A stretch of DNA of 57,728 nt from a virus. Taxonomy: Duplodnaviria; Caudoviricetes. Below are positions 2,033 to 57,448 of the stretch, piece by piece. How positions within the stretch are numbered: position 1 is the first letter of the stretch; each line of letters starts with the position of its first letter. The DNA is taken from positions 1-57,728 of the IMG/VR virus record IMGVR_UViG_3300030430_005103. One strand, given 5' to 3'. Below the pieces are notes generated by a model, which saw only the letters and a program-made list of their open reading frames with translations, had not been told where the DNA came from and did not search any database. The translations under genes and the position numbers were made by a program.

Positions 2033-2784
2033 TTATCATTACATTCGTCTGGAATGCAAACCCATTCAGCCAATTCAGCTTTTGAAAGACCGCTTCTAAT
2101 AAACTCCATAAGCTCTTCATAAGGTGAAGAAATAGCAATATTTCTAAACTTTACTAAAACAGAGTGAACCATTCCTACTAATTCACCTTTAGAATTAAGA
2201 ATCATAGATCCAGAAGATCCAAAAGTAGCAGATAAAGAATAGACATCTTGGCCATCTTCCTCACCAGCATATCTACCTTCAAAGACTGGAACCATATCAT
2301 AATCAAACATACCTAAAGGAGCCGCTATATTATAAACTTTTTCACCTCTTTTTGGAGGTTTCATGGCCAGAGGTATAACCTCCACCCCTTCAGTTAAACC
2401 CTCGGCAAAAAGCAAACAAGCGTCAATTGACTGATCTTTTTTTAGAACAACCGCATCATATCTTTTTAATGATAATGTTGAAACTCTCATATGAATAGTT
2501 TGTTCAACCGATTCCAATAAACCCCTTTCGCCATCACAAACGTGCGCGGCGGTAACTATATAGGCGCCTTTGTCGGATAGTCTAACAACATAACCAGATC
2601 CCGAAGATCGTAAATCCATTGTGGCACAATTGTCTTTACCAAAGCATCTTTTTAACTGAACTGTTTTGCTAATAAACGCAAATCCTTCTCTTGGAAAATC
2701 ATTTTTTACACTTGAATTCATTGTGCCGCAAGAGAAAGTAAACAGCATAACGAACGCGAGGGTACCAACCATAACCCTACTCAT
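2029..2784 (-). CDS. Trypsin-like (S1) serine protease, probable lipoprotein
   Basis: TAAHVC (His), DACLL (Asp) and GSSGS (Ser) triad motifs. Hydrophobic N-terminus ending FTFSC. GGAGGA SD on the minus strand. Confidence 0.9.
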   Translation of the reverse strand: MSRVMVGTLAFVMLFTFSCGTMNSSVKNDFPREGFAFISKTVQLKRCFGKDNCATMDLRSSGSGYVVRLSDKGAYIVTAAHVCDGERGLLESVEQTIHMRVSTLSLKRYDAVVLKKDQSIDACLLFAEGLTEGVEVIPLAMKPPKRGEKVYNIAAPLGMFDYDMVPVFEGRYAGEEDGQDVYSLSATFGSSGSMILNSKGELVGMVHSVLVKFRNIAISSPYEELMEFIRSGLSKAELAEWVCIPDECNDN

Positions 2785-2875
2785 TTTTTTATCCTCCTAT
2801 GTCTCTGAGAATTTTACTCTCATATAAATAAATAAGGGAGCCGGAATGCTTTTCTCCTTTTTTATAAACAAAAAC

Positions 2876-2883
2876 ACTATTTA
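2876..2883 (+). promoter_or_regulatory. ACTATTTA putative phage late-promoter motif upstream of phoH
   Basis: The same motif recurs in several short intergenic gaps just upstream of start codons. Confidence 0.5.
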
Positions 2884-2892
2884 TAATGACTG

Positions 2893-2938
2893 CTTCTTCA
2901 GTTTAAATTAACTTGAAATAAGTGTTTTAATGAAGAAG
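2893..2938 (+). repeat. Long imperfect hairpin in the phoH leader
   Basis: CTTCTTCA (2893-2900) pairs with TGAAGAAG (2931-2938), enclosing TTAAA/TTTAA and ACTT/AAGT inner stems. Confidence 0.6.
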
Positions 2939-2965
2939 ATCAAGTGTTTAACAAAGTGAGTTAAC

Positions 2966-4279
2966 ATGGCTAAAAAAATTTATATTCTTGATACGAGCGT
3001 CTGTTTAACAGATGCTAATTGTATTCGATCTTATGGTACTAACGATATTGTCCTTCCTTTAAAAGTTCTTGAAGAAATAGACAACAATAAAAAAAGACAA
3101 GACGGAGCCGGCACAAATGCGAGGATGTTGATTCGTGATCTTGACGCCCTTCGTGAGAAAGGTAGCTTGTCTAAAGGAGTAAGAATAGATAAAGGGAAAG
3201 GTATAATATGCGTGAAAATGGTCAAGCGTGAAGGAATACCGGAAGATTTAGATTTATCGGTGCCTGATAATGAAATCATTAGCGTTGCGTTAAACCAAAA
3301 AAATGAAAACCCAAAAAGAAAAGTAATCGTGGTCACACGAGACATTAACATGCGTGTTAAATGCGATTCTCTGGGTCTTCCGACTGAGGATTATAATTCA
3401 GATCAAGTTATAAAAGATACAGATAATATATACACTGGCTTTGTCGAACATTTGGTTGATGAGCCTGTTTTGGATAGGTTTTATAATGGAGAAGAAGTCT
3501 ATATTGAAGAAGAAGAGCTAGAGTTAAATCCAAATCAATTTTTAATGTTGATATCAAATCAAAATGAAAAAAAGACTGCTCTTGGAAAGTTTGAATCTTA
3601 TGAGAAACCCCTAAATTTGCTCAATCCCGGCAATAAAAAAAGACTTTGGGGTTTGAAATCTAGAAATAAAGAGCAGATTTTTGCTATGGATTTATTAGAA
3701 GACCCAAAAGTGAATGTGGTTACGTTAGTGGGTAAGGCTGGCTGTGGTAAGACCTTAATGGCAATAGCTGCCGGCCTTAGCCAAGTTGTGGAAAAAGAAA
3801 CCTATAGTCGCTTAGTAGTCTCCAGACCGATACAACCGATGGGTAGAGATATTGGCTTTTTACCAGGAACAATGGAAGAAAAAATGTCACCTTGGGTCGC
3901 GCCAATCAGAGATAATTTGGAATATCTAATGGCAAATGACAAGGCAACATTAGAAACTTATATGGATAGAGGTAAGATAGAAGTTGAAGCGTTAACTTAT
4001 ATAAGAGGTAGATCAATCGCGAATGCTTTTATCATTATTGATGAAGCTCAGAACTTAACCGCACATGAACTTAAAACAATATTAACTCGTGTGGGAGAAG
4101 GAACAAAAATAGTTTTGACCGGCGACATCGAACAAATTGATAATGTATATCTAGATGAAACCTCAAACGGTCTTACCCACGCTGTTGAAAAATTTAAAAC
4201 TTTTGAAATTTCTGGGCATGTTACGCTTCGAAAGGGTGAAAGGTCTAAAGTGGCGACAATCGCATCTAAAATTCTTTAA
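2966..4279 (+). CDS. phoH: PIN-domain PhoH family ATPase (PhoH2/YlaK type)
   Basis: N-terminal PIN (ILDTSV, LEEID, DNEII, VTRDINMRVK), Walker A GKAGCGKT, GFLPG, RGRS, IIDEAQN, GDIEQID. Confidence 0.95.
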   Translation: MAKKIYILDTSVCLTDANCIRSYGTNDIVLPLKVLEEIDNNKKRQDGAGTNARMLIRDLDALREKGSLSKGVRIDKGKGIICVKMVKREGIPEDLDLSVPDNEIISVALNQKNENPKRKVIVVTRDINMRVKCDSLGLPTEDYNSDQVIKDTDNIYTGFVEHLVDEPVLDRFYNGEEVYIEEEELELNPNQFLMLISNQNEKKTALGKFESYEKPLNLLNPGNKKRLWGLKSRNKEQIFAMDLLEDPKVNVVTLVGKAGCGKTLMAIAAGLSQVVEKETYSRLVVSRPIQPMGRDIGFLPGTMEEKMSPWVAPIRDNLEYLMANDKATLETYMDRGKIEVEALTYIRGRSIANAFIIIDEAQNLTAHELKTILTRVGEGTKIVLTGDIEQIDNVYLDETSNGLTHAVEKFKTFEISGHVTLRKGERSKVATIASKIL

Positions 4280-4322
4280 ATTATCTCAAATATCTGTTAT
4301 ATTTACATAAAAGGAGAATCTT

Positions 4323-4613
4323 ATGACAGTACAAAATGAAAATCCTGATTTATTTGAACCAATACAGCCTGTGAATGAGATGAAAAAATGGTTGGTTAAT
4401 TATGTTGGAGAAAAAATAAATCCTGACAATGATGAAGTTAACGTTGAAATGATTATTCAAGTTATGGCCACTGAGTTTCCGGAATTTTTATTGGCAATCG
4501 CAGAAGAAAATTTTATACGAGGTTATCAACAAGGCTTAAGTGATGCTGATTTATCTGCGTCCGACGCTTTACCATCAGCGTTAGAAAATGGGGCTTTAGG
4601 ATATTCTAAATAA
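4323..4613 (+). CDS. Hypothetical protein
   Basis: AAGGAG SD, ORF fills the gap, AEENFIRGYQQG segment. Confidence 0.75.
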   Translation: MTVQNENPDLFEPIQPVNEMKKWLVNYVGEKINPDNDEVNVEMIIQVMATEFPEFLLAIAEENFIRGYQQGLSDADLSASDALPSALENGALGYSK

Positions 4614-5294
4614 ATGAAAGATTATATAACAGAGGGTGTTCAAAAATCCAAGAAAAAACTTAAAAAATATAAAATTTACGGGCGCCCCTTTGTTTTTACC
4701 CAACCGTTCGAAAGAGATATTAATTTACAATATATTAAAGATAAAATTGAAACACTAACACCGGAGCATTTTTTTGATAATGTTGATGGTTTTTTTGTTG
4801 GGTATGTTAAAGAATTTTTTAAAAATGGTCGTGAATATAATGCCATGTTTAAAGATGGGGCGATATATCTATCCCCAGATCAAGATGATGAGAGAGATCT
4901 GCTAGATGATATACTTCATGAACTAGCACACGCTGTCGAAAAAAAACACCAAGATAAAATATATGGCGACGGCCGCTTAGAACGTGAATTTGTGGCAAAA
5001 AGAGTACATTTATACTATCGTTTAGGAGATAAAAATTACAATCTAGAGGACTATAGTAAGCCAGAATATGATTATGAATTTGATCAACATTTATACAAAA
5101 ATATTGGTTATGATAGGTTGAGAGGTATGTCAGCTGAGTTATTCTATTCACCGTATGCTATTACAGCCTTGAGAGAATATTGGGCAAATGGTTTTGAAAA
5201 CTATTTATTAGGTAGTAGAGGTAAATTAAAAGAAATTAGCCCAGTGCTTTATCAAAAAATAGATTCACTTTTTGATACTGAGGAGATGAGATGA
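4614..5294 (+). CDS. Zincin-like metallopeptidase
   Basis: HELAH (HExxH) plus a downstream EYWANGF third-ligand motif, as in ATLF/MtfA-like zincins. Confidence 0.7.
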   Translation: MKDYITEGVQKSKKKLKKYKIYGRPFVFTQPFERDINLQYIKDKIETLTPEHFFDNVDGFFVGYVKEFFKNGREYNAMFKDGAIYLSPDQDDERDLLDDILHELAHAVEKKHQDKIYGDGRLEREFVAKRVHLYYRLGDKNYNLEDYSKPEYDYEFDQHLYKNIGYDRLRGMSAELFYSPYAITALREYWANGFENYLLGSRGKLKEISPVLYQKIDSLFDTEEMR

Positions 5295-5701
5295 AATATA
5301 TTTCTAGAGAAGAAAAAGATGATCGGGTGGTATTCACATTTAGTGTTGTGAATAGGTCACGAACAAAGAGGGTTTACTATCCGGTTGAAAAAATAATTGA
5401 AGCTATAAAAAATAAAAATAATTTGGATAATTATGTTTTCTTAGAAAACGAAAGTTCTGGTGTGGTAACAAATTCAAATCCAAAGGGTAAATACGTATTT
5501 AAAAAGAAAGTGGTTGACATTTTAAATGATAATGTTAAAATAAATAAAACAAAAATAGAAGCTGATGCTCCTGTTAAAAAAGAGCAAAAAAAAGAAGCTT
5601 CGTCGCCCTCTAAAACTTTGCCTTACGGACTTAAAAAAACAGAGCCAAAAACCAGGCCAAAGAAAAAAAGAGCGACAAGAAAGAAAAAAACAGAGGAATA
5701 G
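5291..5701 (+). CDS. Hypothetical protein with Lys-rich C-terminal tail
   Basis: GAGGAG SD, ATGA overlap, basic low-complexity tail. Confidence 0.65.
   Translation: MKYISREEKDDRVVFTFSVVNRSRTKRVYYPVEKIIEAIKNKNNLDNYVFLENESSGVVTNSNPKGKYVFKKKVVDILNDNVKINKTKIEADAPVKKEQKKEASSPSKTLPYGLKKTEPKTRPKKKRATRKKKTEE
5514..5541 (+). promoter_or_regulatory. Putative sigma70-type promoter for the nuclease/glycan operon
   Basis: TTGACA (5514-5519), 16 nt spacer, TAAAAT (5536-5541), with an extended -10 TG at 5533-5534. Confidence 0.45.
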
Positions 5702-6505
5702 ATGTCCCACATATCCTACTCAGAGCTTAAAGAGTGGACCACTTGTGCTTGGAAGCATAAATTAAACTATATTGACAAAATCAGACAGTTTAAAGGTAAT
5801 GAGCATACTGCTTTTGGTTCAGCACTTCACACAGTTTGTGAAGTTATAGTTCAAGACTACGATGAAAATAAAAAATCTAAAGACTTAGAAGAGCTTTTTG
5901 AGGCAGAATTTTTACAAAACCTACAAAAAATAAAATCTTCATCCGAAATAGAATTTTCAGCAGATCTTTTAAGTTCGATGCGCAAGCAAGGAAAACACCT
6001 AACACAGTTTATTTTACCTGCTCTTAAAAAACATTTTGGAAACTTTGAAATGATATCTGTAGAGGAACAGATATATGAGACAATAGAAAATAAAACTATT
6101 GATAAAAAGTTTAAAGGTTTTATCGATCTCGTAATATACACACCAGACACCAAAAAATATCACGTTATCGATTGGAAAACTTGTTCTTGGGGTTGGGACA
6201 GTCGCAAAAAAACTGATAAAATGATCACCTATCAATTAAGTTTATATAAACACTTCTGGGCCAAAAAACATAATAAGAACTTAAAAGACATTACAACTCA
6301 TTTTGCTTTGTTAAAAAGAACAGCTAACAAAAATAATGTAGAGATATTCAAAGTTACCAATGGTGAGAAGAAAATATCTAATGCCCTTAAACTATTGAAT
6401 AAAGCAGTGTATAATATCAATAAAAGCAACCACGTCAAAAACAGACTTTCCTGCTACGGCAAATATGGCGTGTGCGAATATTACAAAACAAAGCATTGCT
6501 CATGA
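5702..6505 (+). CDS. PD-(D/E)XK exonuclease, Cas4/RecB-like with possible Fe-S cluster
   Basis: ISYS...C, GSALH, E..I, GFIDLV, IDWKT and QLSLY motifs, plus a C-terminal Cys triplet. Confidence 0.85.
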   Translation: MSHISYSELKEWTTCAWKHKLNYIDKIRQFKGNEHTAFGSALHTVCEVIVQDYDENKKSKDLEELFEAEFLQNLQKIKSSSEIEFSADLLSSMRKQGKHLTQFILPALKKHFGNFEMISVEEQIYETIENKTIDKKFKGFIDLVIYTPDTKKYHVIDWKTCSWGWDSRKKTDKMITYQLSLYKHFWAKKHNKNLKDITTHFALLKRTANKNNVEIFKVTNGEKKISNALKLLNKAVYNINKSNHVKNRLSCYGKYGVCEYYKTKHCS

Positions 6506-6512
6506 GGTTTAA

Positions 6513-7781
6513 ATGGATAAAAAAATTAAGGTCTTCACTCTTAGTGATATGCCTCTTAGTCCTAGTGGCGTTGGAACTCAAACTAGGTATATTTGTGAGG
6601 CGTTATTAAAAAGCGGTAAGTTCCAAATTCGTTCTTTTGGTGGTGCCATCAAGCATCCAAAGTATGACCCAATTAAAACAGAACAATATGGTGATGATTG
6701 GATTATGTTTCCGGTCGATGGATACGGAAGTAAAGAATCTGTGCGCTCTCTAATCCGACAAGAAAAACCAGACATTATGTGGTTTATGACAGATCCTCGG
6801 TTTTGGGGTTGGCTTTGGGAAATGGAAAACGAAATACGCCCTCTTATGCCAATGGTATATTATCATGTTTGGGATAATTATCCTTATCCAACTTTTAACA
6901 AGACAGCGTATGAGTCAAATGATTTTATTGCTACAATATCAAAAGTAACAGATGATATTGTTAAAACTGTTGCGCCTGAAGTAAAATCTCAATACATTCC
7001 ACATGCTGTCAATAGCGATATATTCACCCCTCTAGACAATGATGAAGAAATTGTCCAATTTAAAAAAATGGTTTTTGGTCCGTATCATGACCCAGACAAA
7101 TTTGTTTTCTTTTGGAACAATCGCAACGCTAGGAGAAAACAATCTGGATCTCTAATTTTTTGGTTTAAAGAGTTCCTTGATTCAGTTGGTCATGATAAAG
7201 CAACACTTGTTATGCATACAGAAGTTAAAGATCCTAATGGTCAAGATTTACAAGCAATTATTGAGCATCTAGGTTTAACTAATGGTGAGGTTTTATTTAG
7301 TCAATCAAAAGTAGATCTAAAAAGATTAGCTTTAATATATAACGTGGCCGACTGTACAATTAACATTTCCGATGCGGAAGGTTTTGGCTTGGCAACGCTT
7401 GAGTCTCTGTCATGCGGAACTCCAATTATTGTTAATATGACGGGTGGTCTTCAAGAGCAAGTTAAAAACGAAACTGATGAGTTTGGCATACCTTTATACC
7501 CAGCTTCACGCGCAATAATTGGATCTCAACAAATTCCATGGATATACGAAGATAGATTAAATGGTGATGAAGTTGTAGAGGCAATGAAAAAAATATATAA
7601 TATGTCAAAAGAAGATAGAAAAACTATGGGATTATTAGGTAGACAACACGTAATGAAAAACTATAATTTTGATACGTTCAGTAAAACTTGGGTTGACACA
7701 ATGTTAAATATTCACGAAGAAGAAGGTTCATGGGAAACTAGAAAGTATACTAAGCGTTGGACACTTAAGGAGGTTGCTTGA
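6513..7781 (+). CDS. Glycosyltransferase, GT4 family (GT-B)
   Basis: SGVG loop, IPHAVN, NRNARRK, EGFGLATLESLSCGTP (E-x7-E). Confidence 0.92.
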   Translation: MDKKIKVFTLSDMPLSPSGVGTQTRYICEALLKSGKFQIRSFGGAIKHPKYDPIKTEQYGDDWIMFPVDGYGSKESVRSLIRQEKPDIMWFMTDPRFWGWLWEMENEIRPLMPMVYYHVWDNYPYPTFNKTAYESNDFIATISKVTDDIVKTVAPEVKSQYIPHAVNSDIFTPLDNDEEIVQFKKMVFGPYHDPDKFVFFWNNRNARRKQSGSLIFWFKEFLDSVGHDKATLVMHTEVKDPNGQDLQAIIEHLGLTNGEVLFSQSKVDLKRLALIYNVADCTINISDAEGFGLATLESLSCGTPIIVNMTGGLQEQVKNETDEFGIPLYPASRAIIGSQQIPWIYEDRLNGDEVVEAMKKIYNMSKEDRKTMGLLGRQHVMKNYNFDTFSKTWVDTMLNIHEEEGSWETRKYTKRWTLKEVA

Positions 7782-9040: not shown

Positions 9041-9881
9041 ATACGTCTTTGTAATGGACTTTTTTTTTAGTGAGTTTCAAGGTGGAGCAGAATTAAACGC
9101 TGAAACTCTTGCTAACTCTCTAAAACAAAACGGCGCAGAAATAGAATTAATTAATTCTTCTAAAGTCACAATTGATTTTATGAAACAAAGACTAAACGAT
9201 GTATTTGTTTTTGGTAATTTTGTTCTGTTGTCTGAAGAATCAAAAAGCTTTGCTATTGACAATTTAACTTATTTGATCTATGAGCAAGATCATAAATATT
9301 TAAAAACAAGAAACCCAATTTTCTTTCCAAATTTTAAAGCCCCAGCACATATGTTATGTAACATAGATTTTTTTAAAGCGGCGAAGAAAAATTTATTTTT
9401 AACAAAACTTTCAAGAGATGTATTTGTTGAAAATACCGGTTTAGACAATGTTTATAATTTAGGATGTTCAATATGGTCGAAAGAAGACTTAAACACGATG
9501 AGACAGCTATGCAATAGTGAAAAAGTTGATAAAGTTGCTGTGTTGGATTCAGATAATCCGATTAAAAAAAGAGCTAAAACAGTTGAGTACTGCAGTAATA
9601 ATAATTTAGATTTTGAATTAATAAAAGATAAAAACTATCACAAATTTTTAGAGAAGTTATCAAGATATAAAAAATTTATTTTCTTTACGGGTCACTTAGA
9701 AACGTGCGCTAGAATTCTCGTTGAAGCTAAAATGTTGAATGTTGAAGTTTCCTATCAAAAAAAATTAATTGGAGCAGCATCAGAACCTTGGTTTAAATTA
9801 TCTGGTTTGGAATTAATTGATGAAGTAGAAAAAATATGTGAAGAAATGCCGATAAAGGTAATGGAAATTGCTAATGAATAA
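9033..9881 (+). CDS. Divergent GT-B glycosyltransferase
   Basis: GGAE N-terminal loop and ETCARILVEAK (E-x7-E). TTG start. Confidence 0.7.
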   Translation: MRKYVFVMDFFFSEFQGGAELNAETLANSLKQNGAEIELINSSKVTIDFMKQRLNDVFVFGNFVLLSEESKSFAIDNLTYLIYEQDHKYLKTRNPIFFPNFKAPAHMLCNIDFFKAAKKNLFLTKLSRDVFVENTGLDNVYNLGCSIWSKEDLNTMRQLCNSEKVDKVAVLDSDNPIKKRAKTVEYCSNNNLDFELIKDKNYHKFLEKLSRYKKFIFFTGHLETCARILVEAKMLNVEVSYQKKLIGAASEPWFKLSGLELIDEVEKICEEMPIKVMEIANE

Positions 9882-10731: not shown

Positions 10732-10732
10732 A

Positions 10733-17543: not shown

Positions 17544-17544
17544 A

Positions 17545-48013: not shown

Positions 48014-48024
48014 AAGGAGAGAAC

Positions 48025-48241: not shown

Positions 48242-48253
48242 AAGGGTGAATAA

Positions 48254-51763: not shown

Positions 51764-51764
51764 T

Positions 51765-51772
51765 ACTATTTA
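51765..51772 (+). promoter_or_regulatory. ACTATTTA putative late-promoter motif
   Basis: Immediately after the stop codon, ahead of GAGGAG SD and ATG 51793. Confidence 0.55.
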
Positions 51773-51792
51773 GTTAAAAGAGGAGATTATAA

Positions 51793-52737
51793 ATGGCTTT
51801 CTTAGACAATTCAGGTGACATTATATTAGACGCTGTGTTAACGGACACAGGGCGCCTAAGACTGGCTCGTGGAGACGGTTCATTCAAAATTACAAAATTC
51901 GCTTTCGGAGACGACGAAATCAACTATGCTAGCTATAATGGCCAACATTTATCCGGATCAGCTTATTATGATTTAGAAATATTACAAACACCAATTTTTG
52001 AGGCGTTTACAAACAACACTTCTACAATGAAGTCAAAACTAATAAGCTTAACAAACAATAATCTTCTTTTTCTACCTATAATAAAACAAAATACGTTATT
52101 GTCCAATACTCAATTACCAGCTAGCAATGATGCGCTCGCCGCAGGCAAGTACACTGTTTTTGTTAATGATGACACAAAAGACGCTCTTCTTGCTGCAAAA
52201 AATACAACGCTCGCAAGTCTTTCTGGGTTCATTAACGGATATTCAAAGCCAGGAAACAATTACATTCGTGTGGATCAAGGATTAGACACAACTAAGATAT
52301 CTTCAGATTTCTCTATTGATCCGGAGTTGAAAGAAAGACAATATCTGGTAGAAGTTGATTCTAGATTCTTATTTCTATATGACTTACAAGGCAGTCAGAA
52401 CGCACAAGAGTCTTTTATAGATGATGATTTAATCGCAACTTATTACTTTACGCAGAACATTGGTTCTTATATTTCAGACTTAACACCAGGAGAAAACCCA
52501 GACACTGGAGACGAAAATATCTTAGGACCAAGAGGAACTAGATTTCAATTTGGACTACAAGCAGCAACTGATGTTAAAACTTCAGATTATTTATTTAATA
52601 CCATAGGAGTTGACGTATCAGAAGGTAGCCCTAGCAAAAGCTTCTCTGCCATAGATACTAGTATTAGAATCACAGGTGTTACAACGGGATACAGAGTAGA
52701 TATACCGGTAAGGGTATTAAAAGAACAAAATACTTAA
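51793..52737 (+). CDS. Baseplate/tail-associated structural protein
   Basis: DAVLTDTGR..LA.G...ITKFAFGD resembles tail-collar/fibre-attachment N-termini. Confidence 0.6.
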   Translation: MAFLDNSGDIILDAVLTDTGRLRLARGDGSFKITKFAFGDDEINYASYNGQHLSGSAYYDLEILQTPIFEAFTNNTSTMKSKLISLTNNNLLFLPIIKQNTLLSNTQLPASNDALAAGKYTVFVNDDTKDALLAAKNTTLASLSGFINGYSKPGNNYIRVDQGLDTTKISSDFSIDPELKERQYLVEVDSRFLFLYDLQGSQNAQESFIDDDLIATYYFTQNIGSYISDLTPGENPDTGDENILGPRGTRFQFGLQAATDVKTSDYLFNTIGVDVSEGSPSKSFSAIDTSIRITGVTTGYRVDIPVRVLKEQNT

Positions 52738-52755
52738 TAACAAAAGGAAAAATAA

Positions 52756-54336
52756 ATGGCTACTACATTTAAAACTTTATTAAACAGCGATATCGCAAAT
52801 ACAAGAACACTTCTTCATGAGGCAATTCCAATCACAGGAACAATCATTTCAGGTACCTACGAGGACGAGAACATTAAGACGTTCGCTCATGGTATGTTCG
52901 AGGCAGTTTTTGATTATCCCTACTTAAGTTCATCAGCAAATCATATTTTTGATATTTCTGCCGGATATGCTTCTGACAGCATATTATCTGGAGCGGCCAA
53001 CACCCAAGGTAAGAAAAAAATGAACATATATAATCAACACGCTCAGGTGTTGGTTGGCTACGATGTTAGTGGAAATATTCAAAATTTTGACAGAGATGGC
53101 AACACAGGCACTACTGGTGATCAAATGAAAGAGTGTTTCTTTATTAATTTTTCTAGGCTTTTAACAAAGGATGAAATAAAAAAAGATTCATTCAGATTAG
53201 GGATGTTTGCCTCTTCTAGCGCAGTTAATGGTATAGTTGATGGCGGCGCCGCACTAACCACAGGCGTTAGAAATCAGCTAGAAGTCATTGGAGATTATGG
53301 CGCAGCGACAGAATATAAAGTTAATTCTCCTGCTGGAGAATTTGGATTGCTTTATAGTAGTTCTGCAACTCCACGAAACACCAACAATAATCCTCCAATT
53401 GGACACATTTATTACCAAGCTGGAATCGCAGTTATTACGGCATCTTTCTTTTCAGGTGCTTTCGGTGATCCGTCTAGCACAGCCGATAGAACCCAGTCTA
53501 GCGGGGAACTTGGAGTACAAGCATCCAGAACGGACGCAGTTTCTCTTGCGGCTGGCCCAGTAACCGCCGATGAGACAATTAGTATAACTTTCCCAGCTGG
53601 TTATCCCACCCTTGCTGAGACCACGGTTCAATTTGTATTCAAAAGCGCTGGCGATGTAAATACGGGAACACCAGATATCAATCAGGTTTTTGTAAGCCAC
53701 GGAGGTAGTGAGTCAGATAGCGCGACAAACTTTAGAAAAGCAATTAATGGTATAACCAATAATGATGGATCTGAAGATGTTAAATTTGGATCTAATCCGG
53801 CGTTTACTGATGGCAGCGGCTTTCAAATTCCAAACTTAACTGCGGCCGTAGGAAGCACCGCAGCGAAAGTTACGATTACTGCAGCCATCCCCGGTGGTAT
53901 TGGTGCCACTGGTAATAGCGTTGAATTATCAAAAACTGGTTCAGACATAACCATACTAAGTCCACTACAAAATGGTACTAACGCAGAACTGGCAGTAATG
54001 AATCGCTTGACCGGCTCAACGATTACTCAATTGGCAAATGGCTTTCGTTATAATTATGAAAATCTAGATTTTAATAATACGACAGAACTCAACTCAACCA
54101 TATATTTCTGTCGTGCTAATACTCAAGATTACAATTATAGTGCTAATCCAACTTACTTAGATGCGAGTGAGATTAGAGTTAAAAATAATAACCCCAAAGC
54201 CCAACCGGTTGCTTATATCACGACTGTTGGTCTTTACGGCTCTGATAATGAGCTTCTTGCTGTCGCAAAGTTATCAGAACCTTTAAAGAAATCACCTTCG
54301 AATGAAATTACTTTGAGGGTCAGACTAGACTACTAA
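52756..54336 (+). CDS. Baseplate/tail-associated structural protein with an inserted module
   Basis: C-terminal YITTVGLY..DNELLAVAKLSEP.KK...LD, paralogous to 54338. Confidence 0.65.
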   Translation: MATTFKTLLNSDIANTRTLLHEAIPITGTIISGTYEDENIKTFAHGMFEAVFDYPYLSSSANHIFDISAGYASDSILSGAANTQGKKKMNIYNQHAQVLVGYDVSGNIQNFDRDGNTGTTGDQMKECFFINFSRLLTKDEIKKDSFRLGMFASSSAVNGIVDGGAALTTGVRNQLEVIGDYGAATEYKVNSPAGEFGLLYSSSATPRNTNNNPPIGHIYYQAGIAVITASFFSGAFGDPSSTADRTQSSGELGVQASRTDAVSLAAGPVTADETISITFPAGYPTLAETTVQFVFKSAGDVNTGTPDINQVFVSHGGSESDSATNFRKAINGITNNDGSEDVKFGSNPAFTDGSGFQIPNLTAAVGSTAAKVTITAAIPGGIGATGNSVELSKTGSDITILSPLQNGTNAELAVMNRLTGSTITQLANGFRYNYENLDFNNTTELNSTIYFCRANTQDYNYSANPTYLDASEIRVKNNNPKAQPVAYITTVGLYGSDNELLAVAKLSEPLKKSPSNEITLRVRLDY

Positions 54337-54337
54337 A

Positions 54338-55543
54338 ATGCCTTTATACAAATTTGGTCCAAAAGATATCCTTAGAAATAGGATCAAAACCTATCCGAAC
54401 AATACCTTCTTTGTTCATAGCGCTAGTATATATTATGGCAACAGAAATCAGATTACGGGTGCCTTTGTAGATAATGTAACTCATGTTCCTACTGGTTTTG
54501 TTAGTCTGTATGAATTAAATATTGATAGAAAGTTTTCAGATCATACGTATGATCCAGATACAAACACCGGCAAAAAAACTAAAATATTTCCTTTCATATC
54601 AAAAGATTCGTCTTTTAATTCTTTCGCCACAATATCAACAAATAACTTTAATCAATTCCAATATGGTGATATAATAACAGGTAGTTATCCTTTTTCTGCT
54701 TCAATAACCAGAGAAACATTTGATGCTGGTACAAACCCAACCGGTTCACATCTGTTGGCTTTAAAGAACACTTTAAATTATTATAAATCTCTAAGCCCTA
54801 ATTATGCTTTTTCATCTTCATTAAGAGACTTAGCAACAGATGATGTTACACTGATTAGTATACCTAGCATTTTTTATGGTTCTAACATTCGTAAAAATTC
54901 TGTTAAACTAGATTTTTATATCTCTGGCACCTTGGTTGCTAGTTGTGAAGACTTGTATAGAAATGGAGAGCTGATACAAACTAGCGGCACTGCCCATGCG
55001 CAATCAAACGGCTCGGGATCTGTCGCCGGAGTAGTGCTTTATAACGAAGGTTTTGTGTTACTAACTGGAAGTTGGAGCTTAACTGAAGAAAATTATGATT
55101 TCGGACCAGCACCGAACCGCACCGGTCAATGGACTGATTTTGCGGCTGGGGCCAATGATGGCCTTTCTCCCGCTGATTTAACTTTATCAGCCAGCTTCGC
55201 TTTAAATTTTCAAGGTACGAATTATATTAATACTATGACTATGAATTGTGATGCTCCACTTGGAGAGTTAAACTACTCGCCAAATCCTACGTATATGACA
55301 TCTAGCTTGTATGGGGCGTTTTCAAGTAAAGAAGGTTATTTTCAAGATAATAAAATTGCGGTTAAAAATACAATTAGCTCTTCGTTTTACAACTATGAAG
55401 AAGATTTTAAACCACAGACATTTATAACAAAGATAGGCATATACGATAAAGATAAAAATTTGATAGCTATAGCCAATCTCGCGAAGCCAATTAAAAAAAC
55501 CGAAGATAGAGACTACACATTTAGATTAAAACTAGATATTTAA
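54338..55543 (+). CDS. Baseplate/tail-associated structural protein
   Basis: C-terminal FITKIGIYD.D.NLIAIANLAKP.KK...LD, paralogous to 52756. Confidence 0.65.
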   Translation: MPLYKFGPKDILRNRIKTYPNNTFFVHSASIYYGNRNQITGAFVDNVTHVPTGFVSLYELNIDRKFSDHTYDPDTNTGKKTKIFPFISKDSSFNSFATISTNNFNQFQYGDIITGSYPFSASITRETFDAGTNPTGSHLLALKNTLNYYKSLSPNYAFSSSLRDLATDDVTLISIPSIFYGSNIRKNSVKLDFYISGTLVASCEDLYRNGELIQTSGTAHAQSNGSGSVAGVVLYNEGFVLLTGSWSLTEENYDFGPAPNRTGQWTDFAAGANDGLSPADLTLSASFALNFQGTNYINTMTMNCDAPLGELNYSPNPTYMTSSLYGAFSSKEGYFQDNKIAVKNTISSSFYNYEEDFKPQTFITKIGIYDKDKNLIAIANLAKPIKKTEDRDYTFRLKLDI

Positions 55544-55554
55544 GGAACCATTAT

Positions 55555-56067
55555 ATGATACTAGGATTAGATATAAGCACCAGCATAACTGGTTTTTGTA
55601 TCTTAGACGGTGAAGGAGAGATAATTCGCTCTGGAGTCTGGGATACAAGGAATAAAAATAAATTTGAAACATTTTTTGATAAAATTCAACATGTCAAAGA
55701 TGGCTTACAAGAAATAAAGGTACAGTATCCAATCCAACGAGTATTTATAGAGAAACCTTTTATGTTTTTTGGATCAGGAGGATCCACAGCAAAAACCATG
55801 GCAGCATTACAAAAGTTTAATGGTACAATCTCTTGGATATGTTATGAGACGTTCAAACATCAACCAACTTACTTTACTGCCCAACAAGCACGAAAACTTA
55901 ACGAAATAAAGGTAGAAAAAGGTAAAGATACTAAGAAACAAATATTACAATGGGTGCTTGACAACTACCCTGACTTCAGTGTAGAATATACACACAAGGG
56001 AAATCCCCGACCAAAATATTTTGATATTGCTGATGCAATAGTAGTAGCGAAGGCAGGGCTTAAATGA
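55555..56067 (+). CDS. RuvC-like Holliday junction resolvase
   Basis: ILGLDIS...TG, VFIE and DIADA catalytic acidic motifs. Confidence 0.85.
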   Translation: MILGLDISTSITGFCILDGEGEIIRSGVWDTRNKNKFETFFDKIQHVKDGLQEIKVQYPIQRVFIEKPFMFFGSGGSTAKTMAALQKFNGTISWICYETFKHQPTYFTAQQARKLNEIKVEKGKDTKKQILQWVLDNYPDFSVEYTHKGNPRPKYFDIADAIVVAKAGLK

Positions 56068-56525
56068 ATTGGACTACCGGCGCAGGTAAATCCATAAACT
56101 TTTTCGATATCACACAAAAAATAAAATCTCATAATAAAAACAAAGGACAGGTTATAGTAGGAACAGATTCTCATGTAAAAACGGGAAAGTGTACCTTTAC
56201 AACCACTATTGTCTTAGTTGGAGCCCAAAATCAAAAAGGAGGTCTTTACTTTTATAAAATAGAAAAGTATAATGACCCTGATAGATTTTATAACCGCATT
56301 CTTAAGGAAGCTGAGAAGTCAATAAATATGGCAATGAAGATAACAGAATTGTGTCCATCAACAAATGTAGAAATACATATTGACATTTCACCAGAAGAAT
56401 GTAATAATAGAACCTCACCTATGGCTAAAATGCTAGTAGGCTACGCAGTTGGATCTGGATTTGCTTGTAAAATTAAGCCTGATTCTTTCGCAGCTTCGGT
56501 AGTCGCAGACAAACATTCTAAATGA
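56064..56525 (+). CDS. RNase H-like YkuK (DUF458) family protein
   Basis: VGTDS, RI..E...S, EIHID, KP.SFAAS.VAD. Confidence 0.85.
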   Translation: MNWTTGAGKSINFFDITQKIKSHNKNKGQVIVGTDSHVKTGKCTFTTTIVLVGAQNQKGGLYFYKIEKYNDPDRFYNRILKEAEKSINMAMKITELCPSTNVEIHIDISPEECNNRTSPMAKMLVGYAVGSGFACKIKPDSFAASVVADKHSK

Positions 56526-57448
56526 GAAATAAAAAAAATATATTACGAGAAGTTCTTGGGTCTGGATATGACTCAAGAGACGAAACACTTTATCACTGTC
56601 CCTTTTGTAAACATCATAAAAAGAAATTGTCAGTCAATGTTGTTAAAGGCTTTTTCAAATGCTGGGTTTGCGATACAAAAGGCGCCATATCTTATCTTAT
56701 AAAACGCTTTGGAACGATAGATGACCGTCATGATTGGGCCTTACTAGATCAAGAAGTAGACTTTTCTACAATGGATTTGATTTTTAATCAACCAGAAGAA
56801 AAGTTGCCTCCTGTAAATTTACCACCAGAATATATGTGTTTAGCGAAAAAAGGCTTACCTCCTGCTGCTAATGAAGCTATATCTTATCTGTGGTCGAGAG
56901 GTATAGGACAAAAAGATATTATTTACCATAAGATCGGATTTTGCTTGACAGGTAAGTATAAAAAGCGTATAATAATACCGTCCTTTGACGATGAGGGTAA
57001 TTGTAATTATTTCACGGCTAGGTCATATAGTGGTGATTGGCTATCTTATAAGAATCCTCCAGCGTCAAAAAATATTATTTTTAATGATCTTTTGATCAAT
57101 TGGAATGAGCCGATAACTTTAGTAGAAGGCCCATTTGATTCCATAAAGATGAAAAATTCTATTCCTATATTGGGATCAACTCTAAAAGAAACAACAAAGT
57201 TGTTCAAAAAGATTGTTGAAAAACAAACAAAAGTTTACATTGGTTTAGATGAAGATGCCTTAAATAAATCAATGAAAATCATATCTTTACTTCTTGAGTA
57301 TGGATTAGATGTCTATAAGCTAGACACTTCTGATATTGAAGATATCGGGTCCATAACAAAAACAGAAGCTGAAGATCTAAAACAAGAGGCATCACAGATC
57401 GATCTAGAAAGTATTTTTAATATTTATTGGAGTATGAATGAGCTATAA
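56522..57448 (+). CDS. dnaG: DNA primase (DnaG-type)
   Basis: CPFC...CWVC zinc finger, YL..RGI, RIIIP, AR, YKNP, TOPRIM VEGPFD and LDED. Confidence 0.9.
   Translation: MRNKKNILREVLGSGYDSRDETLYHCPFCKHHKKKLSVNVVKGFFKCWVCDTKGAISYLIKRFGTIDDRHDWALLDQEVDFSTMDLIFNQPEEKLPPVNLPPEYMCLAKKGLPPAANEAISYLWSRGIGQKDIIYHKIGFCLTGKYKKRIIIPSFDDEGNCNYFTARSYSGDWLSYKNPPASKNIIFNDLLINWNEPITLVEGPFDSIKMKNSIPILGSTLKETTKLFKKIVEKQTKVYIGLDEDALNKSMKIISLLLEYGLDVYKLDTSDIEDIGSITKTEAEDLKQEASQIDLESIFNIYWSMNEL

What the first reader, a model, noticed from the sequence alone, without database searches (positions are those of the whole stretch)
2563..56686. Strong excess of GC-rich palindromes GGCGCC and RCCGGY in an AT-rich phage (HIP-like)
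Seen, by manual count: about 24 GGCGCC (e.g. 2563, 4681, 8095, 13399, 13578, 14107, 23232, 28873, 29891, 30341, 40958, 51851, 56681), about 17 GCCGGC (e.g. 3107, 3770, 14937, 21384, 23408, 32470, 41615, 49798), about 20 ACCGGT and several CGGCCG. At roughly one-third GC, only 1-2 copies of any all-GC hexamer are expected, and CCCGGG and GGGCCC are rare here. GGCGCC occurs in different reading frames, so Gly-Ala coding is not the only cause. Known: phages usually avoid palindromes, whereas cyanobacterial HIP sequences are over-represented and linked to cognate methyltransferases. Inference: a methylation-coupled repair or DNA-modification process creates or preserves these sites.
Basis: partly seen in the sequence, partly recalled or inferred. 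Interest (0 to 1): 0.75.

Follow-up and report, generated by a model that had tools for sequence, protein, structure and literature searches.

The report
GC-rich palindrome excess in phage
An AT-rich uncultured phage and its relatives carry several-fold too many copies of a few GC-only 6-base palindromes, the reverse of the usual phage habit of avoiding such sites, and the cause is a DNA-level process not yet identified.

Summary
With amino acids and codon usage preserved, GGCGCC is 24 vs 5.3 (z about 8; rank 1 of 4096 hexamers) and GCCGGC is 17 vs 5.2. With all dinucleotides also preserved they are 24 vs 8.1 and 17 vs 6.3. The true effect is therefore 3-4.5 fold, not 13 fold. Same-codon non-palindromic controls (GGCGGC, GCCGCC) are only about 1.5 fold. 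The excess is frame-independent in larger relatives, confined to the contiguous word (spacing 0), not a by-product of restriction avoidance, and shared by a deep clade of uncultured phages in which other members have zero copies. Sites are not positionally conserved (3 of 32 shared with the closest relative). The words match two of the 'alternate HIPs' of cyanobacteria. However, no cytosine methyltransferase or Vsr was found in the window or in five larger relatives (two complete), no one-step donor word is depleted, RCCGGY is not the unit (hybrids are not enriched), and the host is unknown. The methylation-coupled-repair reading is plausible but unproven.

The parts
2563..56686 (.). 24 copies of GGCGCC
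   Evidence: starts 2563, 4681, 8095, 13399, 13578, 14107, 23232, 26902, 28873, 29891, 30341, 31343, 34460, 35828, 37974, 39236, 40640, 40958, 41945, 43235, 46328, 51851, 53245, 56681. 24 vs 5.3 under the codon null, 8.1 under the dinucleotide-preserving codon null, 5.3 under the avoidance-constrained null. 19 are in-frame GGC|GCC (Gly-Ala), 3 are in frame 1 and 2 in frame 2. 10 of 24 are isolated in AT context (G/C run of exactly 6).
3107..49803 (.). 17 copies of GCCGGC
   Evidence: starts 3107, 3770, 14937, 21384, 21498, 23235, 23408, 23412, 32470, 33814, 40895, 40955, 41615, 41942, 43255, 45416, 49798. 17 vs 5.2, 6.3, 5.0. Frames 13/0/4 vs null 4.2/0.06/0.81.
7817..55126 (.). 20 copies of ACCGGT
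   Evidence: starts 7817, 7891, 9435, 14283, 21264, 32236, 33142, 34151, 34952, 38068, 41051, 42718, 43271, 47719, 49477, 51634, 52704, 54204, 54740, 55121. 20 vs 9.4, 9.5. Frames 11/0/9 vs 6.2/0.2/3.0. The weaker member: not enriched in the pooled 38-49% tier of relatives (57 vs 60).
4970..53848 (.). 9 copies of CGGCCG
   Evidence: starts 4970, 8070, 10034, 21079, 23410, 25130, 37891, 42255, 53843. 9 vs 3.0 (z 3.5); 4.0 (z 2.4). Marginal once the 1.5-fold baseline of GC-only control words is allowed for.
23229..23242 (.). Composite run: ACCGGC, GGCGCC and GCCGGC overlapping
   Evidence: overlapping hits at 23229, 23232 and 23235; G/C run of 13 bases. This shows that the rotations CCGGCG, CGGCGC and GCGCCG are partly counted from overlaps of the two palindromes.
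23408..23417 (.). Composite run: GCCGGC, CGGCCG, GCCGGC overlapping
   Evidence: hits at 23408, 23410 and 23412.
40955..40963 (.). GCCGGC overlapping GGCGCC (Ala-Gly-Ala)
   Evidence: hits at 40955 and 40958. The same 9-mer is present at 41942-41950 (hits at 41942 and 41945).
1..57728 (.). Context in the same DNA: strong depletion of TGCA and elimination of about a dozen other GC-rich 6-base palindromes
   Evidence: TGCA 71 vs 162 in genes, z -10. Zero copies of AGGCCT, CACGTG, CCTAGG, CGATCG, CGTACG, CTCGAG, GAGCTC, GCATGC, GGGCCC, GCGCGC and CGCGCG; 1 copy each of ACGCGT and GACGTC. The same set is eliminated in the closest relative G001, where expectations are larger (for example AGGCCT 0 vs 13.9, GAGCTC 0 vs 12.0).

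Best explanation
Shown: a force acting on double-stranded DNA, not on protein or codon choice, keeps a few exact, contiguous GC-rich 6-base palindromes (GGCGCC and GCCGGC; more weakly ACCGGT and CGGCCG) at 3-4.5 times their codon-aware expectation. It works almost entirely through synonymous positions, operates along the whole fragment, is shared by a deep clade of uncultured large phages, and is maintained by continual gain and loss of sites, not by conservation of particular sites. Inferred: because the signal belongs to the exact contiguous word (spacing 0 only, perfect palindromes only), the agent recognises DNA the way Type II methyltransferases and restriction enzymes do. No cytosine methyltransferase or Vsr was found in this phage lineage, so the most likely agent is host-encoded. 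The proposal is cytosine methylation of these words in the usual host(s), which shifts the balance of site gain and loss on phage DNA replicating there, either by biased mismatch repair or by slower mutational decay of methylated sites. This is the same kind of process proposed for the 'alternate HIPs' GGCGCC and rCCGGy of some cyanobacteria. Relatives whose hosts pair the same specificity with a restriction enzyme instead lose every copy.
For: Real and codon-independent: (GGCGCC 24 vs 5.3, 8.1 and 5.3; rank 1 of 4096). Palindrome-specific: the same two codons in non-palindromic order give GGCGGC 10 vs 6.8 and GCCGCC 10 vs 5.8; matched half-site controls for all-GC halves give 3.70 vs 1.68. 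DNA-level: off-frame sites are enriched in the window (5 vs about 1.05) and clearly so in relatives (G002 GCCGGC 122/4/24 vs 37.1/2.1/9.8; GGCGCC 62/11/13 vs 31.2/4.5/6.0; controls flat). Contiguous-word recognition: only spacing k=0 is enriched (G001 37 vs 11 at k0, 5 vs 10 at k1; G002 150 vs 48 at k0, at most 1.5-fold elsewhere). Lineage trait with on/off states: pooled GGCGCC is 36 vs 11 in 7 loci at 60% identity or more, 132 vs 60 in 30 loci at 38-49%, and 4 vs 4 in 28 loci at 27-32%. G005 has 0 copies of GGCGCC, GCCGGC, ACCGGT and CGGCCG (expected 7.3, 6.1, 11.4, 3.8), while its control words are 16 vs 11.9 and 9 vs 6.5. Turnover: 3 of 32 aligned sites are shared with G001, 1.5 expected. 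Accumulated history: in G002 the excess is present in nearly every 10-kb bin, except in a terminal 20 kb of different composition (3 vs 8.9). Not general to AT-rich phages: 0 copies and 0 palindromes in the top 20 in 50-kb pieces of three other cultured phages. Precedent for the same words linked to cytosine methyltransferases: Elhai 2015. Combined density of the three words is 1.06 per kb, near the roughly 1 per kb that paper discusses.
Against: No cytosine MTase or Vsr in the window or in 5 of 5 larger relatives. G002, which is complete and the most enriched, lacks PF00145, PF01555, PF02086 and PF02384. The host is unknown: 19 co-binned relatives lie in MAGs labelled with more than a dozen unrelated taxa, and 5 of 5 such MAGs tested lack the signature (GGCGCC to control ratio 0.7-2.0 against 6.0 in the window). 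No one-step donor word is depleted: GGTGCC/GGCACC 19 vs 13.5 in the window, 33 vs 27.5 in G001, 71 vs 72.4 in G002; the neighbours of G002 GCCGGC are all 0.75-1.35. This is not what a very-short-patch type conversion predicts. The G-meC ratchet prediction fails: the hybrids ACCGGC/GCCGGT are not enriched and ACCGGT is. The GGCGCC/GCCGGC excess recurs in genomes with different avoidance signatures (TGCA in G000, CATG in G001, ACGT in G002), which is awkward for a cause tied to a single host. The one cultured relative of a HIP-bearing host genus, Microcystis phage Mel-JY01, has 0 GATC, 0 CGATCG and 0 HIP1 in 190 kb, so phages do not automatically adopt a host's iterated palindrome. Part of the raw excess is a generic 1.5-fold clustering of GC-only words.
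Confidence: 0.4

Rival explanations
1. Selection for site density in the phage's own interest: the palindromes are binding or action sites for a dimeric protein of the phage (or one the phage exploits), for example in recombination, end protection, condensation or packaging. Any position will do, so sites turn over.
For: The same two words are enriched across a deep clade whose members carry different restriction-avoidance signatures, which suggests something intrinsic to the phages. Exact contiguous palindromes are what a symmetric dimer reads. No donor-word depletion is expected under selection. Both arms of the window are enriched (13 vs 3.0 and 48 vs 16.6).
Against: The sites are wholly dispensable: G005 has 0 of all four words, and L037 has 0 GGCGCC and 1 GCCGGC in genes. 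Spacing is random in the window (CV 0.86-1.19) and clustered in G002 (CV 1.67 vs 1.15, with a 16.8-kb gap). There is no positional conservation. The favoured word shifts between relatives (GGCGCC in G001, GCCGGC in G002, TCCGGA and CCTAGG in G003). No candidate protein was identified.
Confidence: 0.2
2. An unrecognised phage-encoded enzyme (a divergent cytosine-modifying enzyme or site-specific nuclease or nickase outside the Pfam families searched) creates or protects the sites.
For: The trait follows the phage clade. Only four MTase families plus Vsr, TGT and QueC were searched, and most genes of these phages have no family assignment. The window encodes a PD-(D/E)XK nuclease with no solved homologue detectable by sequence.
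Against: No positive evidence. The nuclease matches the RecB/Cas4-like family PF12705 over its whole length, which as I recall is an exonuclease family and not a site-specific one. The favoured words differ between relatives, and some relatives avoid them entirely.
Confidence: 0.15
3. Residual composition effect: short-range clustering of G+C at synonymous sites, codon-context bias and escape from neighbouring forbidden words together produce the excess, with no site-specific agent.
For: GC-only control words are themselves about 1.5-fold over the codon null in this clade. GGC and GCC are the most enriched GC trinucleotides (1.59 and 1.47). Tighter nulls shrink the effect (24 vs 12.1 with 25-codon windows). 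In G003 at least one enriched palindrome, CCTAGG, sits next to an eliminated neighbour (CCCAGG/CCTGGG 1 vs 34.6), which looks like escape. The class-wide palindrome-versus-control tests are not significant (Wilcoxon p 0.13-0.9 in G000-G003).
Against: The excess survives preservation of all dinucleotides (z 5.8) and a null forbidden to create TGCA and 13 eliminated palindromes (24 vs 5.3). Same-codon controls are flat. Only spacing 0 is enriched. Off-frame sites are enriched. The excess is absent from three other phages of similar GC and from the 27-32% tier.
Confidence: 0.12
4. Palindrome-perfecting mutation: template switching at quasi-palindromes converts near-palindromes into perfect ones, more readily when the arms are GC-rich.
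For: Perfect palindromes are enriched while the hybrids ACCGGC/GCCGGT are not. The effect grows with the GC content of the half-site.
Against: Spaced inverted repeats GGC-Nk-GCC, which hairpin or strand-switch mechanisms should favour, are not enriched for k=1-12. Only some GC-rich palindromes are enriched. AT-rich palindromes show nothing.
Confidence: 0.03

Closest known systems
Alternate highly iterated palindromes of cyanobacteria (GGCGCC in Calothrix PCC 7103; rCCGGy in Oscillatoria PCC 10802), Elhai 2015, PMC4390886
   Same: The same words. They are GC-rich exact palindromes and outliers among all hexamers. Combined density is near 1 per kb. The related word GACGTC is low (1 vs 2.5 here; 1 vs 9.1 in G001). 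The excess may be a by-product and not a function.
   Different: This is a phage, not a cyanobacterium. The effect is much weaker once codons are accounted for (3-4.5 fold). No cognate methyltransferase was found in the element or its relatives. ACCGGT is enriched and the hybrids GCCGGT/ACCGGC are not, the reverse of Oscillatoria. Two or three words are enriched together.
HIP1 (GCGATCGC) of cyanobacteria, Xu, Lawrence and Durand 2018, PMC5861425 (abstract read)
   Same: An over-represented GC-rich palindrome that occurs inside genes in several frames.
   Different: HIP1 is 15-300 fold over-represented, positionally conserved and periodic. Here there are 0 copies of HIP1, no positional conservation (3 of 32) and no regular spacing.
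Very-short-patch repair (Dcm/Vsr) raising CCWGG in Escherichia coli
   Same: A mechanism by which a cytosine methyltransferase site can become over-represented through biased T:G repair.
   Different: It predicts depletion of the T-containing neighbour words. None is depleted here, and no Vsr was found.
CCGG over-representation in Helicobacter genomes, Rusinov et al. 2015, PMC4687349 (passages read)
   Same: A Type II restriction-modification site that is over-represented instead of avoided, for which the authors state they have no explanation.
   Different: That case is a 4-base site in a bacterial genome with the cognate system present, with ratios of about 1.4-1.5.
Restriction-site avoidance in phages, Rusinov et al. 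2018, PMC6286503 (passages read)
   Same: The same class of words is involved. The window itself shows classic avoidance of TGCA and about a dozen 6-base palindromes.
   Different: The finding is the inverse sign for a few words.
Chi sites and DNA uptake sequences (recalled)
   Same: Short GC-rich words kept at high density by a process indifferent to exact position.
   Different: Those are asymmetric and orientation-dependent. Here only exact palindromes are involved, and several at once.

Membership tests
Highly iterated palindromes (HIP, including alternate HIPs; Elhai 2015) | A short GC-rich palindrome that is an extreme outlier in over-representation among all words of its length | tested here: met
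   GGCGCC ranks 1 of 4096 and GCCGGC ranks 2-3 under the codon-preserving null. Ratio to base composition is 13.6 and 9.6. The codon-aware ratio is only 3-4.5.
Highly iterated palindromes (HIP, including alternate HIPs; Elhai 2015) | Density of roughly 1000-2000 copies per million bases | tested here: inconclusive
   GGCGCC 0.42 per kb, GGCGCC plus GCCGGC 0.71 per kb, with ACCGGT 1.06 per kb. This reaches the range only when the words are pooled.
Highly iterated palindromes (HIP, including alternate HIPs; Elhai 2015) | A methyltransferase able to methylate the word is encoded in the same genome | tested here: not met
   No PF00145 or PF01555 in the window. No PF00145 in 5 of 5 larger relatives. 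G002, which is complete, lacks four MTase families. The window is only about 33% of its genome, and a host enzyme cannot be tested because the host is unknown.
Highly iterated palindromes (HIP, including alternate HIPs; Elhai 2015) | Pattern predicted by the G-meC ratchet: for rCCGGy, the words GCCGGC, GCCGGT and ACCGGC rise but ACCGGT does not | tested here: not met
   GCCGGC 17 vs 5.0; ACCGGT 20 vs 9.6; ACCGGC/GCCGGT 18 vs 14.3.
Highly iterated palindromes (HIP, including alternate HIPs; Elhai 2015) | Occurs where HIP1 itself is low or absent | tested here: met
   GCGATCGC 0 and CGATCG 0 in the window.
HIP1-type selected element (Xu et al. 2018) | Sites positionally conserved between related genomes beyond the neutral expectation | tested here: not met
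   3 of 32 aligned sites retained against 1.5 expected, P 0.20, upper 95% bound 0.22. Synonymous sites between the two genomes are close to saturation, so only strong conservation is excluded.
HIP1-type selected element (Xu et al. 2018) | Periodic or regular distribution along the genome | tested here: not met
   Coefficient of variation of gaps is 0.86-1.19 in the window, as for random placement. G002 is clustered (1.67 vs 1.15). Periods of 10-90 kb cannot be assessed in 58 kb.
Very-short-patch repair driven site excess (Dcm/Vsr type) | A Vsr endonuclease and a C5 methyltransferase are present | tested here: not met
   PF03852 and PF00145 are absent from the window and from 5 of 5 relatives. 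The host is not testable.
Very-short-patch repair driven site excess (Dcm/Vsr type) | Depletion of the words one C-to-T step away from the site | tested here: not met
   GGTGCC/GGCACC 19 vs 13.5, GACGCC/GGCGTC 7 vs 8.4, AGCGCC/GGCGCT 8 vs 13.0 in the window. In G002 the C-to-T neighbours of GCCGGC are 90 vs 66.8, 97 vs 90.4 and 86 vs 75.8.
Restriction-site avoidance in phages | Recognition-type palindromes are under-represented | tested here: not met
   For these four words the sign is reversed. For TGCA and about 13 other palindromes in the same window the feature is met.

The most novel reading that the evidence does not exclude
Phage genomes can carry 'iterated palindromes' of their own. 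A site-specific process that reads exact 6-base GC palindromes (host methylation-directed repair acting on phage DNA, or an unknown phage system) actively raises their number, as the mirror image of restriction avoidance. Each phage's spectrum of enriched and eliminated palindromes would then be a readable footprint of the methyltransferases and restriction enzymes of its hosts, usable for host assignment of uncultured phages.
Probability: 0.3. Interest if true: 0.8.

Novelty: new variant of a known kind. Interest (0 to 1): 0.62.

Why it matters
Phage genomics treats short palindromes as things phages lose under restriction pressure. Here a whole clade of large uncultured phages shows the opposite for a few GC-only palindromes, while it eliminates a dozen others, and close relatives range from 0 to 150 copies of the same word. 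If the excess is imposed by host methylation and repair, it extends the unresolved HIP problem from cyanobacterial chromosomes to viruses. It would also offer a natural experiment on the drive-versus-selection question, with many related genomes, different words, rapid turnover, and synonymous sites as the only substrate. Palindrome spectra could then help assign hosts. If the cause is phage-intrinsic, it points to an unrecognised site-specific function. In either case the question can be settled with one methylome of virion DNA.

Tried and rejected
(1) Amino-acid or codon-usage artefact: rejected by synonymous shuffles, local-window shuffles and a dinucleotide-preserving shuffle.
(2) By-product of restriction avoidance: rejected for the window by a constrained null. 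It may contribute to CCTAGG and TCCGGA in relative G003.
(3) Template-switch or hairpin origin: rejected, only spacing 0 is enriched.
(4) Six-base insertions or a repeated element: rejected. Flanks carry no shared sequence, and only 3 of 35 sites lie in alignment gaps.
(5) RCCGGY as one degenerate motif: rejected.
(6) General enrichment of all palindromes: not supported. Class-wide tests are not significant and AT-rich palindromes are flat.
(7) Even-coverage function: not supported.
(8) Protein-level drive: GA and AG dipeptides are only 1.09-1.10 fold in the window.
(9) 7-deazaguanine modification in GGC context (context recalled from memory): no TGT/DpdA or QueC.
(10) Phage MTases of G001 and G003 as cognate enzymes: they are DpnA/CcrM-like adenine types, and the words contain no adenine.
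(11) Host identification: megablast against phages found nothing. The single-protein scan of genome contigs found nothing. The profile scan gave 19 loci in MAGs of inconsistent taxonomy. Five of those MAGs lack the signature. No psbA in relatives.
(12) Precedent in a cultured cyanophage: Mel-JY01 avoids GATC and HIP1 entirely, though it has its own CCCGGG-family excess mixed with many non-palindromic GC words.
(13) The search of earlier findings was not open.
(14) Literature: searches found no paper describing HIP-like or GGCGCC/GCCGGC over-representation in phage genomes. The two papers that mention both HIP1 and cyanophage were seen as listings only. Supplementary tables of Elhai 2015 (per-genome ratios) were not seen and may hold further cases.
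(15) Sequencing-run tools, structure prediction and complex prediction were not used, because none could address the question.

Full report
What the window is. The window is an entire IMG/VR virus record of 57,728 bases, linear, and estimated to be 33% complete. It is 35.5% G+C and 98% coding by a simple ORF call, with 47 of 48 genes on the + strand. It encodes PhoH and a baseplate wedge protein and very large structural ORFs of up to 3239 aa. It also carries a sugar-biosynthesis island. The nearest cultured relatives of its baseplate wedge protein are distant: Microcystis phage Mel-JY01 at 30% and the Flavobacterium 'immuto' phages at 29%. There are 80 uncultured relatives in IMG/VR at 27-92% identity. 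The closest, G001 (130,668 bases), is syntenic with the whole window at 50-98% protein identity.

Checking the observation. Base composition predicts 1.8 copies of an all-GC hexamer, so the raw ratio is 13.6 for GGCGCC. That null is too lenient, because GC-only hexamers built from GGC, GCC, GCG and CGG units are all 4-7 fold over it, non-palindromic ones included.

It does not remove the signal (1000 within-gene synonymous shuffles):

| Word | Observed | Null mean | z | Shuffles reaching observed |
|---|---|---|---|---|
| GGCGCC | 24 | 5.28 | 8.1 | 0 of 1000 |
| GCCGGC | 17 | 5.17 | 5.4 | 0 of 1000 |
| ACCGGT | 20 | 9.38 | 3.8 | 0 of 1000 |
| CGGCCG | 9 | 2.96 | 3.5 | P 0.003 |

Ranked against all 4096 hexamers under this null, GGCGCC is first and GCCGGC second. 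Stricter nulls reduce the effect but do not abolish it:
- Shuffling only within 60- or 25-codon windows gives 24 vs 8.75 (z 6.1) and 24 vs 12.07 (z 4.4).
- Preserving every dinucleotide count as well gives GGCGCC 24 vs 8.1 (z 5.8), GCCGGC 17 vs 6.3 (z 4.9), ACCGGT 20 vs 9.5 (z 4.1) and CGGCCG 9 vs 4.0 (z 2.4).

So the real effect is about 3-4.5 fold for the two all-GC palindromes, about 2 fold for ACCGGT, and marginal for CGGCCG.

Is it the palindrome, or just GC-rich codons side by side? 19 of the 24 GGCGCC sites are in-frame Gly-Ala, written GGC|GCC. The same two codons can be arranged four ways, and the four dipeptides are about equally common (GA 73, AG 73, GG 71, AA 95). The palindromic orders are 24 vs 5.3 and 17 vs 5.2. 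The direct orders, GGCGGC and GCCGCC, are 10 vs 6.8 and 10 vs 5.8, and 10 vs 6.3 and 10 vs 6.9 under the dinucleotide-preserving null. A matched comparison of each palindrome h·rc(h) with h·h and rc(h)·rc(h) gives 3.70 against 1.68 for all-GC half-sites, 1.30 against 0.97 for half-sites with two G/C, and 0.97 against 1.02 for AT-rich half-sites. There are therefore two layers: a generic 1.5-fold clustering of GC-only words, and a further roughly two-fold excess specific to a few GC-rich palindromes. Palindromes as a class are not enriched (Wilcoxon p 0.33 in the window). Within RCCGGY only the two perfect palindromes rise (GCCGGC 17 vs 5.0, ACCGGT 20 vs 9.6).

Is it DNA-level? In the window the 5 off-frame GGCGCC sites exceed their expectation of about 1.05, and the 4 off-frame GCCGGC sites exceed 0.87. 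The numbers are small, so I used whole relatives.

| Genome | Word | Observed by frame | Null by frame |
|---|---|---|---|
| G002 (200,760 bases, 100% complete) | GCCGGC | 122/4/24 | 37.1/2.1/9.8 |
| G002 | GGCGCC | 62/11/13 | 31.2/4.5/6.0 |
| G002 | GGCGGC (control) | 72/2/11 | 54.2/2.5/13.6 |
| G003 | CCTAGG | 17/0/31 | 4.4/0/8.7 |
| G003 | GTCGAC | 28/7/8 | 12.8/3.1/3.9 |

The enrichment is thus similar in every frame in which a word can occur, which is the behaviour of a DNA-level force. It acts almost wholly through synonymous positions. The dipeptides GA and AG are only 1.09 and 1.10 times expectation in the window, and AG is 1.16 in G002.

What kind of recognition? Counting GGC-Nk-GCC and GCC-Nk-GGC for k = 0 to 12 shows the excess only at k = 0. 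In G001 it is 37 vs 11 at k0 and 5 vs 10 at k1. In G002 it is 150 vs 48 at k0 and at most 1.5 fold elsewhere. In the window it is 24 vs 5 at k0, with the other spacings between 0.3 and 2.3 fold. The flanks show no shared sequence, and 10 of the 24 sites stand alone in AT-rich context. The signal therefore belongs to an exact, contiguous 6-base word, as for a Type II methyltransferase or restriction enzyme. It does not belong to hairpin-forming inverted repeats, which rejects a template-switch origin.

Is it a by-product of avoidance? The same DNA shows classic restriction avoidance. TGCA is 71 vs 162 (z -10). Eleven 6-base palindromes have zero copies and two more have a single copy. The closest relative eliminates the same set against larger expectations. 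I ran a null in which synonymous swaps may never create TGCA or any of 13 eliminated palindromes. It gives the same expectations as the free shuffle (GGCGCC 24 vs 5.3, z 8.5; GCCGGC 17 vs 5.0; 40 replicates). Avoidance does not explain the excess in the window. It may contribute to two enriched words in relative G003, where neighbours are depleted (CCCAGG/CCTGGG 1 vs 34.6 beside CCTAGG; TCTGGA/TCCAGA 84 vs 121.7 beside TCCGGA).

How far does it extend? The same analysis on four whole relatives gives the following.

| Genome | Enriched | Depleted or eliminated |
|---|---|---|
| G001 | GGCGCC 37 vs 10.6 (rank 2 of 4096) | CATG-containing words |
| G002 | GCCGGC 150 vs 48.7 (rank 1), GGCGCC 86 vs 42.8 (rank 5), CCCGGG 37 vs 15.6 | not one ACGT in 200 kb |
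| G003 | TCCGGA 101 vs 41.8, CCTAGG 48 vs 13.3, TCGCGA, GTCGAC and others (6 palindromes in the top 20, P 4e-7) | CTNNAG words and CAGCTG |
| G005 | no palindrome enriched | zero copies of GGCGCC, GCCGGC, ACCGGT, CGGCCG, GACGTC, GGGCCC, CCCGGG and GCGCGC; controls GGCGGC and GCCGCC present at 16 vs 11.9 and 9 vs 6.5 |

The variance of z among palindromes is 3-4 times that among other words in G000-G003.

Pooled over relatives of 8 kb or more, with the codon null:

| Identity tier | Loci (bases) | GGCGCC | GCCGGC | Controls |
|---|---|---|---|---|
| 60% or more | 7 (110,630) | 36 vs 11 | 10 vs 8 | 25 vs 15, 19 vs 10 |
| 38-49% | 30 (495,681) | 132 vs 60 | 139 vs 66 | 125 vs 84, 99 vs 64 |
| 27-32% | 28 (431,666) | 4 vs 4 | 3 vs 3 | 7 vs 6, 4 vs 7 |

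Fifty-kb pieces of three other cultured phages of 34-40% GC (P-RSM6, ACG-2014h, immuto) have 0 copies of both words and no palindrome among their top 20. The excess is therefore a trait of one deep clade, with the window at its upper end, and it is absent or reversed in some members.

Conservation, spacing and distribution. In 14,880 aligned codons between the window and G001 (73% identical residues), codon identity at conserved Gly and Ala is 0.39. Of 32 aligned GGCGCC and GCCGGC sites in the window, 3 are the same word in G001, where 1.5 would be expected from independent codon retention (P 0.20; upper 95% bound 0.22). In the reverse direction, 3 of 17 and 0 of 14 are retained. Only 3 of 35 sites lie in alignment gaps, so they are not insertions. 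Both genomes are enriched but at different places, so the excess is continually regenerated. This is the opposite of HIP1, which is reported to be positionally conserved (Xu et al. 2018, abstract).

Site spacing in the window is indistinguishable from random (CV 0.86-1.19). In G002 it is clustered (CV 1.67 vs 1.15), which argues against an even-coverage function. Both arms of the window are enriched (13 vs 3.0 and 48 vs 16.6). In G002 the excess is seen in nearly every 10-kb bin from 0 to 180 kb. The terminal 20 kb, the most GC-rich part, has 3 sites where 8.9 are expected, as if it had a different history.

Testing the methylation-repair reading. Elhai 2015 reports GGCGCC as the iterated palindrome of Calothrix PCC 7103 and rCCGGy as that of Oscillatoria PCC 10802. 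Each comes with a methyltransferase able to modify it. The paper proposes a G-meC-directed mismatch-repair ratchet that saturates near one site per kb. The window matches in the words, in the low count of GACGTC, and roughly in pooled density (1.06 per kb for three words). It does not match in four respects.
- No C5 methyltransferase, N4/N6 methyltransferase or Vsr domain is found in six-frame searches of the window.
- There is no C5 methyltransferase and no Vsr in 5 of 5 larger relatives. G002, complete and most enriched, lacks PF00145, PF01555, PF02086 and PF02384. The methyltransferases of G001 and G003 are DpnA/CcrM-like adenine enzymes, and the words contain no adenine.
- No word one step from the sites is depleted. 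This includes the deamination products that a very-short-patch mechanism should drain: GGTGCC/GGCACC 19 vs 13.5 in the window, 33 vs 27.5 in G001 and 71 vs 72.4 in G002. The nine neighbour classes of G002 GCCGGC are at 0.75-1.35.
- The ratchet predicts GCCGGT and ACCGGC up and ACCGGT not, and the window shows the reverse.

A host enzyme remains possible, but the host is unknown. The 19 relatives found inside bacterial or archaeal assemblies sit in MAGs labelled with more than a dozen unrelated taxa. Five of five such MAGs tested show GGCGCC-to-control ratios of 0.7-2.0, against 6.0 in the window. No psbA is present in the relatives. The one cultured relative that infects a cyanobacterium, Mel-JY01, has no GATC, no CGATCG and no HIP1 in 190 kb. 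It does show its own excess of CCCGGG (108 vs 28), mixed with many non-palindromic GC-rich words. A phage therefore does not automatically inherit its host's iterated palindrome. A lead recalled from memory, that 7-deazaguanine modification occurs in GGC contexts, found no support (no TGT/DpdA and no QueC).

Interpretation. What is shown is a DNA-level, exact-word, palindrome-specific, lineage-wide and continually renewed excess at synonymous sites. It sits beside strong avoidance of other palindromes in the same genome, and the same words are completely eliminated in some relatives. What is inferred is the agent. I rate host cytosine methylation that alters gain or loss of the sites (alternate-HIP-like) as the single most likely cause, at 0.4. 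The reasons are that the recognition is enzyme-like, that the words are known methyltransferase and restriction targets, that the on/off pattern among relatives fits methyltransferase-only versus restriction-competent hosts, and that the same words have this behaviour in cyanobacteria. Density selection for a phage function (0.2) and an unrecognised phage enzyme (0.15) are favoured by the recurrence of the same two words across relatives with different avoidance signatures. A purely compositional residue (0.12) is disfavoured by five independent controls. Template switching (0.03) is essentially excluded.

Novelty. Searches of the held library found no description of HIP-like or GGCGCC/GCCGGC over-representation in phage genomes. 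In the systematic phage survey, a term search returned no match for 'overrepresent' and a single 'over-represent' mention, which concerns Type III sites. The prokaryote survey lists over-represented Type II sites as rare and, for CCGG in Helicobacter, unexplained. Supplementary tables of these papers were not available. I class this as a new variant of a known kind: iterated GC-rich palindromes, here in a virus, weaker, turning over, and without a cognate enzyme in view.

Caveats.
- Gene calls are a simple longest-ORF heuristic.
- Counts in the window are small for everything except the total GGCGCC and GCCGGC excess. The clearest frame and spacing evidence comes from relatives.
- Synonymous divergence from G001 is near saturation, so only strong positional conservation is excluded.
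- Only seven Pfam families were searched for candidate enzymes.

Noticed in passing
window 5702-18812: A phage-borne sugar island: PD-(D/E)XK nuclease (5702-6505), two GT4 glycosyltransferases (6513-9040), NeuB (10697-11560), a CMP-sugar cytidylyltransferase (12299-12988), a NeuB-cupin fusion (12988-14457), a HAD phosphatase (15401-16498) and an FkbM methyltransferase (16513-17217). This is a nonulosonic-acid type pathway. Genes between about 11.5 and 18.8 kb have no ortholog in the closest relative G001, so part of the island is variable.
   Followed up: partly
window, whole: TGCA is cut to 71 copies where 162 are expected (z -10), by far the strongest depletion of any 4-mer. Relatives instead deplete CATG (G001) or eliminate ACGT entirely (G002).
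   Followed up: partly
window and G001, whole: Both genomes eliminate the same set of 6-base palindromes (AGGCCT, CACGTG, CCTAGG, CGATCG, CGTACG, CTCGAG, GAGCTC, GGGCCC at 0 in both; GCATGC 0 and 1). GAGCTC is 0 in four of the five genomes and 3 vs 24.6 in G003.
   Followed up: partly
G003 (L103-L112): Words of the form CTNNAG (CTGGAG 5 vs 50, CTAAAG 12 vs 67.5, CTGCAG 4 vs 39.4, CTATAG 9 vs 44.6 and others), CAGCTG and CCWGG are strongly depleted, while 14 different palindromes have z above 3.5. G003 also carries two adenine-type methyltransferases.
   Followed up: no
G002 (L101-L102), about 180-200 kb: The terminal 20 kb is the most GC-rich part of this complete genome (48-49% GC) yet has 3 GCCGGC/GGCGCC sites where 8.9 are expected, while the rest of the genome is enriched 2-5 fold. 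It may be recently acquired DNA.
   Followed up: no
Microcystis phage Mel-JY01 (L140-L143): This 190-kb phage has zero GATC in the whole genome. TTATAA is 2 vs 163 and GAATTC 0 vs 63. There is a large excess of CCCGGG (108 vs 28), CCCCGG and 8-mers such as GAACCCGG (24 vs 1.7), which suggests repeated sequence families.
   Followed up: no
window, whole: ATGAGC is the most over-represented non-palindromic hexamer (25 vs 9.7 in genes, z 5.4-6.2). 17 of 26 copies are in frame 1 and only 1 is at a called gene start. Unexplained.
   Followed up: partly
window, whole: CCGGCG is strand-asymmetric (18 copies against 6 of its complement CGCCGG) and mostly in frame 1 (15 of 18). This is partly overlap with the two palindromes and partly a coding-strand effect.
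   Followed up: no
window 2029-2784: The only minus-strand gene among 48. It has a weak match to a phage protease family and is conserved at 92% in G001.
   Followed up: no
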